In this document: positions 30,455-30,476 of the stretch, one piece after another
Position numbering within the stretch: position 1 is the first letter of the stretch
Layout of the letters: each line of letters starts with the position of its first letter
Virus record (IMG/VR): IMGVR_UViG_2541047842_000005
Length of the DNA: 54,238 nt
Reading direction: 5' to 3' (one strand)
DNA from: a virus
Lineage: Duplodnaviria > Heunggongvirae > Uroviricota > Caudoviricetes
Notes under the pieces: model-generated
What the model saw: the letters and a program-made list of their open reading frames with translations, nothing else
Database searches by the model: none
Told to the model about the DNA's origin: nothing
Made by a program: the position numbers and the translations under genes

Positions 30455-30476
30455 TTTTCGCGTAGAAGCGCGTAAA
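30455..30476 (+). repeat. 22-bp element TTTTCGCGTAGAAGCGCGTAAA (copy 1)
   Basis: Exact 22-mer also at 43176-43197; both copies sit 22-32 nt upstream of plus-strand structural gene starts. Confidence 0.6.

What the first reader, a model, noticed from the sequence alone, without database searches (positions are those of the whole stretch)
30455..30476. Exact 22-bp element TTTTCGCGTAGAAGCGCGTAAA upstream of both the portal gene and the gpM-like gene
The identical 22-mer occurs at 30455-30476 (between the large terminase and portal genes) and at 43176-43197 (between a minus-strand moron cluster and the gpM-like gene). It contains CGCGTA twice with a 10-bp period. Both copies lie 22-32 nt upstream of a plus-strand structural gene start, which suggests a shared regulatory or processing element, or a target for a translational regulator, placed where structural-gene expression must resume after an interruption.
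Basis: seen in the sequence. Interest (0 to 1): 0.45.

Follow-up and report, generated by a model that had tools for sequence, protein, structure and literature searches.

The report
Conserved stem-loop motif before portal, gpM
A 22-base imperfect palindrome sits just upstream of the portal gene and a tail-tip gene in every member of one recently described group of E. coli phages (mEpimmI, the mEp021 group); it is a real, selected control element whose mode of action (RNA hairpin or protein-binding DNA site) remains unproven.

Summary
TTTTCGCGTAGAAGCGCGTAAA occurs exactly twice, at 30455-30476 and 43176-43197, both on the + strand, 22 and 32 nt before the portal and gpM start codons. No shuffle reproduced this.

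The window is an mEp021-type (mEpimmI) temperate phage. Both copies are present in all ~80 related contigs examined. The arms are almost invariant and the centre is free: TTTTCGCGTAG-NNN-CGCGTAAA. Exact identity of the two copies is unusual. In 25 of 26 relatives they differ at the centre, so this lineage probably underwent gene conversion.

The repeat is the core of a ~50-nt oriented module that runs to the translation start. The element is absent from more distant relatives with the same gene order, from the other points where tail-gene expression resumes, and from all other IMG/VR phages.

It is not a terminator, a nut site, a Q-binding site, the immunity operator, a NagC/Mlc site or any Rfam family. 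No usable promoter lies between it and the portal start.

Every reliably sequenced arm substitution keeps RNA pairing, and the most divergent copy closes the U·U mismatch. The best reading, at 0.4, is a 5'-UTR stem-loop acting after transcription. A direct-repeat DNA site (YGCGTA-N4-YGCGTA) is nearly as likely, at 0.3. Interest is modest.

The parts
30455..30476 (+). Copy 1 of the 22-nt element (TTTT CGCG TAGAAG CGCG TAAA), in the 79-nt terL-portal spacer
   Evidence: conserved in 48 of 48 portal loci of relatives
43176..43197 (+). Copy 2 of the 22-nt element, in the 167-nt divergent intergenic region upstream of gpM
   Evidence: conserved in 31 of 31 gpM loci of the group, two of them with a 1-nt centre deletion, and in diverged form in L260
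30450..30501 (+). Extended portal module: TCTAT + element + AAACATGTATTCAGGAGTAAACATTATG. It contains the SD AGGAG (30486-30490) and the start codon (30499-30501). It is almost invariant in 42 unique sequences, while the 25 nt upstream vary and tolerate a ~70-nt insertion
43171..43221 (+). Extended gpM module: TCTCA + element + AAAGATATATACAAAATGTAACTTATG. It contains the TACAAAATGTAAC box, with a -10-like CAAAAT at 43206-43211
43151..43156 (+). Invariant TATAAT, 19 nt upstream of copy 2. Candidate -10 of a + strand promoter whose transcript would begin about 12 nt before the stem-loop
   Evidence: kept even in L260
43136..43165 (-). Candidate divergent minus-strand promoter for the 51-aa gene: (A/G)TCACA-18-CAAAAT in 16 of 26 relatives, AGTACA-16-TACAAT in the window
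   Evidence: consensus match only
42907..43062 (-). Conserved 51-aa gene transcribed divergently from gpM. It is always next to this intergenic region, even where the other morons are missing
   Evidence: AlphaFold model with pLDDT 93 and a beta-beta-alpha-beta fold, no DNA-binding fold recognised
30499..31869 (+). Portal gene, the downstream gene of copy 1
43230..43583 (+). gpM-like minor tail gene, the downstream gene of copy 2

Best explanation
The 22-mer is the core of an oriented, start-proximal cis-regulatory module of about 50 nt, specific to the mEpimmI (mEp021) phage group.

Most likely it works in the transcript. The late mRNA starts at a lambda-like pR' in front of the holin gene and is made termination-resistant by a lambda-type Q protein. 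At gpM there may also be a local TATAAT promoter. In that mRNA the element folds into a small stem-loop, UUU(U)CGCG(U)-loop-(G)CGCG(U)AAA, 22-32 nt upstream of the portal and gpM start codons.

Together with the conserved single-stranded stretch 3' of it, the stem-loop would set how much of these two low-copy assembly proteins is made. It could do this as the binding site of an unidentified trans-acting factor (a translational operator), or as a structure that fixes mRNA processing or stability at the 5' side of the gene.

Shown: existence, conservation, orientation, position, pairing-compatible variation, and the absence of a promoter between the element and the portal start.

Inferred: that the RNA form, not the DNA form, is the active one; the existence of a trans-acting factor; and the direction of the effect.
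For: (1) Conservation. There are two copies only, in the same orientation, each just 5' of a + strand gene. Both sites are conserved throughout the group, whereas the flanking intergenic sequence varies and accepts a 70-nt insertion upstream.

(2) Link to the translation start. At the portal site the whole stretch from the element to the ATG is nearly invariant in 42 unique sequences, while synonymous sites just after the ATG vary. This ties the element to the translation start and not only to a DNA position.

(3) No promoter at the portal copy. No conserved -10 lies between the element and the portal start; the aligned position is the SD CAGGAG. A role as a transcription-initiation site cannot therefore be common to both copies. 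The copies lie inside the Q-dependent late transcription unit: Q is PF03589, and the pR'-terminator cassette at 25590-25670 is conserved in relatives.

(4) Variation pattern. The loop positions are free, including a 1-nt deletion. In the 21-sequence alignment 97.6% of cells are paired, and every reliably sequenced arm substitution keeps pairing on the + strand RNA: C5T and C15T give G.U, and T4C falls on the mismatch.

(5) Most divergent copy. In L260, C5T and C15T occur together with T4A, which closes the U.U mismatch. Predicted stability stays at -5.7 to -7.7 kcal/mol in all variants.

(6) Asymmetric conservation. TAG is kept while the mirror positions NNN are free, which argues against a classical dyad operator.
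Against: - No pair shows a change on both sides. The group is too shallow for covariation, and controls cannot separate structure from plain sequence conservation.
- The hairpin is weak and not unusual against shuffles (z about -1 to -1.5).
- There is no Rfam match.
- The same variation fits a DNA direct repeat, YGCGTA-N4-YGCGTA. In L260 both units changed in the same way.
- One low-coverage contig (L283, 1.2x coverage) has G6A, which would break a pair.
- At gpM the repeats lie at about -38 and -28 of a possible CAAAAT promoter, a geometry typical of DNA-binding activators.
- No RNA-binding factor was identified among the phage proteins scanned.
Confidence: 0.4

Rival explanations
1. DNA-level site. 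An unidentified sequence-specific DNA-binding protein binds the direct repeat YGCGTA-N4-YGCGTA, two units one helical turn apart. At gpM it would control the divergent promoter region, either as an activator or repressor over the -35 of a TACAAAAT-type promoter (a geometry like lambda CII at TTGC-N6-TTGC), or as an operator at +13 to +34 of the TATAAT promoter. At the portal site it would act on elongating RNA polymerase as a roadblock, like a stoperator.
For: - Arms are invariant in sequence and the centre is free, which is the usual signature of protein-DNA sites.
- Conservation has translational symmetry (CGCGTAG and CGCGTAA). In L260 both units carry the same C-to-T change.
- At gpM a -10-like CA(A/G/T)(A/T)AT sits 12 nt after the second CGCG in most variants.
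- The site lies among overlapping divergent promoters.
- Oriented repressor sites inside transcription units are known in cluster A mycobacteriophages (PMC9283540).
Against: - The portal copy has no promoter in either orientation at the corresponding distances. The aligned hexamer is the SD CAGGAG, and the minus-strand hexamers are not conserved.
- A natural variant with a 9-bp period exists (L026, L028, L238).
- Half-sites are not enriched elsewhere, and there is no copy near the immunity promoters.
- No candidate binding protein was found. The adjacent conserved 51-aa protein has a generic beta-beta-alpha-beta fold with no HTH or RHH.
- This model does not explain the strict conservation of the 22 nt between the element and the portal ATG.
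Confidence: 0.3
2. No present function. The two copies would be a duplicated linker at mosaic joints (terminase module to head module; moron cluster to tail-tip module), kept similar by gene conversion.
For: - The terL-portal junction is a module boundary. The ~60% portal relatives carry either a different terminase with a 14-nt spacer, or the same terminase type with an unrelated spacer.
- Two lineages show the two copies homogenised at the centre, which points to gene conversion.
Against: - The arms are invariant in about 80 contigs, while adjacent intergenic bases, and even synonymous sites in the portal gene, vary.
- Recombination between direct repeats 12.7 kb apart would delete essential genes, so neutral persistence of both copies is unlikely.
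- The element is kept in the most divergent member with pairing-compatible changes.
Confidence: 0.1
3. An extra nut-like (boxB) hairpin for the N-like antiterminator Gp17, or another processive-antitermination signal such as a Q-binding element or an ops-like site, that re-licenses late transcription.
For: - The stem CGCG with a purine-rich loop resembles this phage's boxB hairpins next to boxA at about 9222-9270, 16487-16530 and 7960-8010 (read).
- One variant loop, UGGAAG, matches the nutR1 loop.
- The element contains GTAG, as RfaH ops does.
Against: - No boxA lies upstream, and the upstream bases vary.
- The loop, which is the recognised part of boxB, is the variable part here.
- The pR' spacer, where lambda-type Q binds, shares no conserved sequence with the element across relatives.
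- Only 5 of 12 ops positions match, and the ops hairpin-forming bases are missing (sequence comparison; the ops consensus is quoted from memory).
Confidence: 0.05

Closest known systems
Extended start-associated sequences (ESAS) of cluster K mycobacteriophages (PMC3203893)
   Same: Phage-group-specific, oriented, imperfect inverted repeats with a variable spacer, placed just upstream of the translation-start regions of particular genes. They are conserved across the group, their function is unknown, and no covariation proves an RNA hairpin.
   Different: ESAS arms are 17 bp, occur about 8-15 times per genome in the non-structural half, and are coupled to a 13-bp SAS that contains the SD 3-7 bp from the start. 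Here there are 2 copies with 8-9-bp arms, in the structural half, 22-32 nt from the start, with no sequence similarity.
Stoperators of cluster A mycobacteriophages such as L5 (PMC9283540)
   Same: Short sites in intergenic gaps inside transcription units, oriented with transcription. They give a precedent for a DNA-bound protein acting on elongation.
   Different: Stoperators are 13-bp asymmetric sites identical to the immunity operator, with more than 20 copies per genome, bound by the immunity repressor. Here there are 2 copies, no copy at the immunity promoters, and no known binder.
Lambda CII sites (TTGC-N6-TTGC at pRE, pI, paQ); established knowledge, not re-read here
   Same: A tetranucleotide direct repeat with a 10-bp period straddling the -35 position. 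The gpM copy has CGCG at about -38 and -28 relative to a CAAAAT -10.
   Different: The portal copy has no -10. No CII homologue was identified. The targets here are late structural genes, not lysogeny promoters.
Translational operators and 5'-UTR hairpins of phage mRNAs (for example T4 gene 43 and gene 32 operators, the MS2 coat-protein hairpin, Mu com-mom); established knowledge
   Same: A small hairpin plus an adjacent single-stranded stretch next to the ribosome-binding site of specific genes. The hairpin is recognised by sequence in the stem or 5' loop.
   Different: No binding protein is known here. The hairpin does not include the SD or AUG. The same operator is shared by two unrelated genes, one for the head and one for the tail.

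Membership tests
Intrinsic (Rho-independent) terminator | G+C-rich stem followed by a run of U | tested here: not met
   The stem is followed by UAAA(C/G)A. The T run lies 5' of the stem. The element was not listed by the terminator scan on either strand.
Lambda-type nut site | boxA (CGCTCTTTA-like) a few nt upstream of the hairpin | tested here: not met
   The upstream sequence is variable and has no boxA. Real boxA copies lie at about 9224, 16489 and 7992.
Lambda-type nut site | Conserved GNRA-like boxB loop with a freely covarying stem | tested here: not met
   The loop centre varies (AGAA, AGCA, AGAG, GGAA, AGCU, AGCG, and a 1-nt deletion) while the stem sequence is fixed.
Q-binding element of a lambda-type late promoter | Lies within a promoter that has a sigma-dependent pause site and a downstream terminator, and shares sequence with pR' | tested here: not met
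   The pR' cassette is at 25590-25670. Its conserved spacer AAACAAACAGAT is unrelated, and the GCGTAAAC seen in this window is not kept in relatives.
Dyad-symmetric operator of a dimeric regulator (CI/Cro-type, or a 22-bp CRP/FNR-type site) | Mirror-symmetric conservation of the two half-sites | tested here: not met
   T9 A10 G11 are conserved, but the mirror positions 12-14 are free. The L260 changes C5T and C15T are repeat-equivalent, not dyad-equivalent.
Dyad-symmetric operator of a dimeric regulator (CI/Cro-type, or a 22-bp CRP/FNR-type site) | Positioned over a promoter | tested here: inconclusive
   gpM copy: +13 to +34 of the TATAAT promoter, or -42 to -21 of a CAAAAT promoter. Portal copy: no promoter found.
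Lambda CII-type activator site | Four-base direct repeats, 6-bp spacer, flanking -35, with a -10 about 12-13 bp downstream | tested here: inconclusive
   Met at gpM (CGCG-N6-CGCG-N12-CAAAAT). Not met at portal, where CAGGAG occupies that place.
Lambda CII-type activator site | A CII-like protein encoded by the phage | tested here: inconclusive
   None was recognised among the proteins scanned with Pfam, PHROGs or NCBIfam or in the annotations of the two phage records read. Most small ORFs have no family.
Stoperator | Same sequence as the operator of the immunity repressor at the early promoters | tested here: not met
   No copy, and no half-site enrichment, in the immunity region 7900-9320 or anywhere else in the window.
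Stoperator | Many copies, oriented with transcription | tested here: not met
   Two copies only. Both are co-oriented with transcription.
SAS/ESAS (cluster K mycobacteriophages) | 13-bp GGGATAGGAGCCC containing the SD, 3-7 bp from the start, with 17-bp inverted repeats upstream; about 10-19 sites per genome | tested here: not met
   Different sequence, 22-32 nt from the start, 2 sites. Features taken from PMC3203893.
NagC/Mlc operator | TT and AA at positions -6,-5 and +5,+6 around the centre of a 23-bp quasi-palindrome (PMC4288165) | tested here: not met
   Those positions are C/G here, and the TT-to-AA distance is 15 bp, not 9 bp.
Any Rfam family | Covariance-model match | tested here: not met
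   No hit at either site down to E = 1.
IS200/IS605 or REP-type hairpin (substrate of a Y1 transposase) | Hairpins flank, or depend on, a Y1 transposase gene | tested here: not met
   The window has an IS200-like gene at 22796-23305. The element is present in relatives that lack that gene, such as mEp021 and L256.

The most novel reading that the evidence does not exclude
The two copies form a minimal post-transcriptional regulon. One unidentified phage or host factor would bind the same 22-nt stem-loop in front of the portal gene and the gpM gene. It would thereby couple the synthesis of the proteins that nucleate head assembly and complete the tail-tip initiator, a head-tail stoichiometry control not described for lambda-like phages.
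Probability: 0.12. Interest if true: 0.6.

Novelty: new member of a known kind. Interest (0 to 1): 0.35.

Why it matters
Late-gene control in the mEpimmI phages is uncharacterised. The paper that describes the group (PMC11893012) covers the repressor, the N-like antiterminator and the nut sites, but no late-region signals.

These phages are common in the human gut. Their structural operon is broken up by several opposite-strand gene clusters. A conserved two-site element at the head-gene and tail-tip-gene entries gives a concrete handle for asking how such a fragmented late region is expressed in balance.

If the element binds a factor, it is a compact, portable operator. If it does not, it is an ordinary 5'-UTR structure.

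Tried and rejected
**Ideas tested and rejected**
- Promoter downstream of the element. No conserved -10 with a usable leader exists at portal. The class-II position hexamers (CATTAT at portal, ACTTAT at gpM) either overlap the start codon or are not conserved.
- Minus-strand promoter with the element centred at -41.5. The geometry fits at gpM, where (G/A)ATTAT is the complement of TATAAT. The corresponding hexamer at portal is not conserved.
- Third copy at 28296-28325 (TTCGCGTAAAGGTAAACAATG). This is the coding end plus stop codon of a small ORF, and relatives have GCATAA there.
- Link to Q or pR': rejected.
- NagC/Mlc operator: rejected.
- CpxR (GTAAA-N5-GTAAA, from memory). The conserved unit here is CGCGTA, not GTAAA.
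- AUG-UAA start-stop in the gpM module. It is lost in L260 and in L284/L285.

**Searches that added nothing**
- Genome-contig search with the capsid protein.
- Metagenome contigs anchored pattern, 1 hit.
- IMG/VR scans for TTTCGCG-N4-8-CGCGTAAA and for the L260-type repeat. These returned only mEpimmI copies or chance matches.

**Not obtained**
- The portal site of the L260 genome could not be fetched.

Full report
**Observation**

The 22-mer TTTTCGCGTAGAAGCGCGTAAA occurs exactly twice in the window, at 30455-30476 and 43176-43197, both on the + strand. No further match with up to three mismatches exists on either strand, and none appeared in 100 dinucleotide-preserving shuffles.

Copy 1 lies in the 79-nt spacer between the large terminase gene (28905-30419) and the portal gene (ATG at 30499; SD AGGAG at 30486-30490). 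Copy 2 lies in the 167-nt gap between a minus-strand 51-aa gene (start at 43062) and the gpM-like gene (ATG at 43230). The similarity extends to 37 nt at 86%. Read by eye it continues loosely to ...GTAA(A)C(A)TTATG, giving a module of about 50 nt.

The element can be read in two ways:
- as a direct repeat, CGCGTA-N4-CGCGTA;
- as an imperfect palindrome, TTT(T)CGCG(T)-AGAA-(G)CGCG(T)AAA, with one T.T mismatch.

**Where the window comes from**

The window is 85-88% identical to coliphages mEp021, mEp010, mEp013, mEp044, mEp515, mEp554 and MagusPhagus. These form the mEpimmI group described in PMC11893012. That paper characterises the CI-like repressor, the N-like antiterminator Gp17 and three nut sites. 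A full-text term search of it for promoter, motif, repeat, intergenic and late found no late promoter and nothing like this motif. Only 34 of 5,426 complete E. coli genomes carry such a prophage.

**Conservation**

I retrieved relatives by protein, independently of the motif.
- All 31 IMG/VR loci with a gpM of at least 85% identity carry the element 32-35 nt upstream of gpM. Two of them have a 1-nt deletion in the centre.
- 49 loci whose gpM is only 65-70% identical, from other phage groups, do not carry it.
- All 48 portal loci that include the upstream region carry it.
- Pattern scans of IMG/VR found the TAG-type element only in this group.
- The arms are nearly invariant. Positions 10 and 12-14 vary (AGAAG, AGCAA, AGAGG, GGAAG, AGAAT, AGCTA, AGCGA, AGA-T).

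In 25 of 26 contigs that carry both sites the copies differ, typically AGCAA at portal and AGAAG at gpM. They are identical only in the window's own lineage (both AGAAG) and in one other contig (both AGCAA). This pattern is best explained by occasional gene conversion between the copies.

At the portal site the block from TTTTTCTATTTTT through the element to the ATG is almost invariant in 42 unique sequences. By contrast, the preceding ~25 nt vary, about a quarter of the genomes have an extra ~70 nt there, and synonymous sites just inside the portal gene vary.

Further out, the element disappears.
- A Pseudocitrobacter prophage with a 60%-identical portal has a different terminase and a 14-nt spacer.
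- A relative with the same Terminase_6C-type terL and a 79-nt spacer has unrelated sequence there.

**Transcriptional context**

The phage encodes a lambda-type Q protein (PF03589; 18160-18888). Immediately before the holin gene there is a TTGTAG-17-TAAAAT promoter, an AACAAT pause-like element (recognised by analogy with lambda pR', from memory) and a strong terminator (25590-25670). This cassette is conserved across relatives and matches lambda pR'-tR' in layout. mEp021 has an annotated terminator, TERM_5, at the equivalent position just before its holin gene. Both copies of the element therefore lie inside the presumptive Q-antiterminated late transcript.

The tail region is interrupted by four minus-strand clusters and several bidirectional terminators. 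The element precedes only gpM. The tape-measure, gpL and fibre restarts carry other motifs: a GTGA-N6-TCACAAAATG repeat and a CCATTTTGTA box.

At gpM, an invariant TATAAT lies 19 nt upstream of the element, giving GTGAAG-17-TATAAT in 23 of 26 sequences. A divergent minus-strand promoter overlaps it. A -10-like CAAAAT lies 12 nt after the second CGCG.

**What it is not**
- Not a terminator: no U run follows the stem, and the scan did not list it.
- Not an Rfam family.
- Not a nut site: there is no boxA, and the loop is the variable part.
- Not related to the pR' spacer where Q should bind.
- Not the immunity operator or a stoperator: no copy or half-site enrichment occurs elsewhere.
- Not a NagC/Mlc site.
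- Not tied to the IS200-like transposase in this window.
- Not a promoter for portal: the position aligned to the gpM CAAAAT is the portal SD CAGGAG, and no other conserved -10 leaves room for the SD and start.

**RNA or DNA?**

Counting pairs on 21 distinct variants gives 97.6% paired cells. Five pairs never vary, three vary on one side only and keep pairing, and none changes on both sides. So there is no covariation proof.

The most divergent gpM site is L260, reached through the neighbouring 51-aa gene. It reads TTTATGCGTATCAGTGCGTAAA. C5T and C15T both give G.U pairs, and T4A turns the U.U mismatch into an A-U pair. Predicted stability is held at -5.7 to -7.7 kcal/mol in every variant, including the deletion variant. 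Across all reliably sequenced variants, six arm changes at three positions are seen and none breaks a pair. By my own rough estimate, only about a third of random substitutions would be that harmless.

These facts favour a transcript-level stem-loop, but only moderately. The same changes read equally well as a degenerate direct repeat, YGCGTA-N4-YGCGTA, whose two units changed in parallel. One contig at 1.2x coverage carries G6A, which would break a pair.

The conservation is not mirror-symmetric: TAG is fixed while its mirror positions are free. That argues against a classical dimeric operator, but not against tandem binding. The shared orientation, the fixed relation to the translation start at portal and the lack of a portal promoter tip the balance to RNA. 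The gpM promoter geometry, with CGCG at about -38 and -28 of CAAAAT as for lambda CII sites, keeps the DNA reading alive.

**Search for a trans-acting factor**

None was found. Pfam, PHROGs and NCBIfam scans were run on the ORFs between Q and the terminase genes, the genes flanking Q, the immunity-region genes and the minus-strand clusters. They returned no regulator beyond the CI-like repressor and Q.

The 51-aa gene next to copy 2 is confined to this phage group. It stays adjacent even when the other morons, including a ParE-like toxin, are absent. Its confident model (pLDDT 93) is a beta-beta-alpha-beta unit with only generic structural neighbours.

**Verdict**

This is a real, selected, group-specific cis element. 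The best reading is a 5'-UTR stem-loop module acting after transcription on portal and gpM expression (0.4). The main rival is a direct-repeat DNA site (0.3). Smaller weights go to a functionless converted linker (0.1) and to an antitermination signal (0.05).

The closest described analogues are the ESAS inverted repeats of cluster K mycobacteriophages and, for the DNA reading, stoperators. It matches neither family's defining features. It is an undescribed member of the broad class of phage intergenic regulatory repeats: worth a bench test in mEp021, but not surprising in kind.

Noticed in passing
window 22796-23305 (+), palindrome 23387-23405: IS200-like Y1 transposase gene (PF01797, E = 5e-38) inserted among the small ORFs between Q and the holin gene. 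mEp021 and L256 have no gene of this size there, so it looks like an IS insertion private to this phage.
   Followed up: partly
window, 23 sites, e.g. 3962, 8086, 8929, 16393, 16458, 39675, 39701, 43134: The motif CCATTTTGTA / TACAAAATGG is strongly enriched: 23 matches with up to 1 mismatch against 5.7 expected, reached by 0 of 100 shuffles. It clusters in the immunity region and in the four divergent intergenic regions of the tail cluster. At 39675-39710 two copies form a 12-bp inverted repeat. It probably marks a -10-type box of the phage's own promoters.
   Followed up: partly
window 5239-5252 (-), 9608-9621 (+), 43204-43217 (+): The exact 14-mer TACAAAATGTAAAC occurs twice, with a near-copy in the gpM module. 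Each copy lies in an intergenic gap in the direction of transcription, two of them directly after a stop codon. It contains ATG-TAA. A degenerate version (TATTCAGGAGTAAAC) sits in the portal module, and one (TACAGAATGTAAAC) sits in the terL-portal spacer of the distant relative L281.
   Followed up: partly
window 16409-16431, 44753-44775, 52102-52124 (related: 39716-39735): A repeat family (A/T)GYGTRAYRYNKATCACAWAATG with a CRP-like GTGA-N6-TCAC core lies upstream of gpL, the fibre gene and, in weaker form, the tape-measure gene. It also lies next to the nutR2-like boxA. It is a different signal from the 22-mer at the other restarts of tail-gene expression.
   Followed up: no
window 25590-25670; Q gene 18160-18888: A lambda pR'-like cassette (TTGTAG-17-TAAAAT, AACAAT pause-like element, strong terminator) sits directly before the holin gene and is conserved in relatives. 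The Q gene, however, lies 6.7 kb upstream, separated from it by about 30 small ORFs of unknown function.
   Followed up: partly
window 9222-9270 (+), 16487-16530 (+), 7960-8010 (-): boxA-like sequences (CGCTCATTAACAA; TGCTCTTTAAAAA twice), each followed by a short GC stem with a GNRA-type or GGAAG loop. These presumably correspond to nutR1, nutR2 and nutL of the mEp021 paper.
   Followed up: no
window 42907-43062 (-) and 42635-42889 (-): A 51-aa gene is restricted to this phage group (57 homologues, at least 76% identity). It is always divergent from gpM, and its confident model has a beta-beta-alpha-beta fold. In most genomes a ParE-like toxin gene (PF24732) follows it, but not in L260. Automatic ORF calling extends it to 68-76 aa.
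   Followed up: partly
L083 2853-2922 (and about 12 other portal loci): About a quarter of the relatives carry an extra ~70 nt, containing the small hairpin CTTCGAAAAATTTYCGAAG, between the terL stop codon and the conserved module. The insertion point is just upstream of AAAATCTG.
   Followed up: no
window 35535-35555, 37853-37868, 38558-38574, 42100-42122, 43785-43802: Strong terminator hairpins, several of them bidirectional, lie inside the structural region: after the major capsid gene, the major tail gene and the tape-measure gene, and at the borders of the minus-strand clusters. Late transcription must read through them.
   Followed up: no
window 49738-50582 and 5614-6173: In-frame 108-nt tandem repeats occur in the C-terminal part of the 1656-aa J-like tail-tip gene. 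Three repeats of about 190 nt occur inside the minus-strand ORF 5256-6179.
   Followed up: no
L280 3209-5113: In one relative the MuF-like head morphogenesis gene downstream of the portal gene is 634 aa and carries an intein-splicing domain (PF14890).
   Followed up: no
protein hits P0009-P0111: Many ~60%-identical portal homologues (PF06381) from Enterobacter, Citrobacter and Serratia are named 'anti-CBASS protein Acb1 family protein' in NCBI and UniRef. For a portal protein this looks like an annotation artefact.
   Followed up: no
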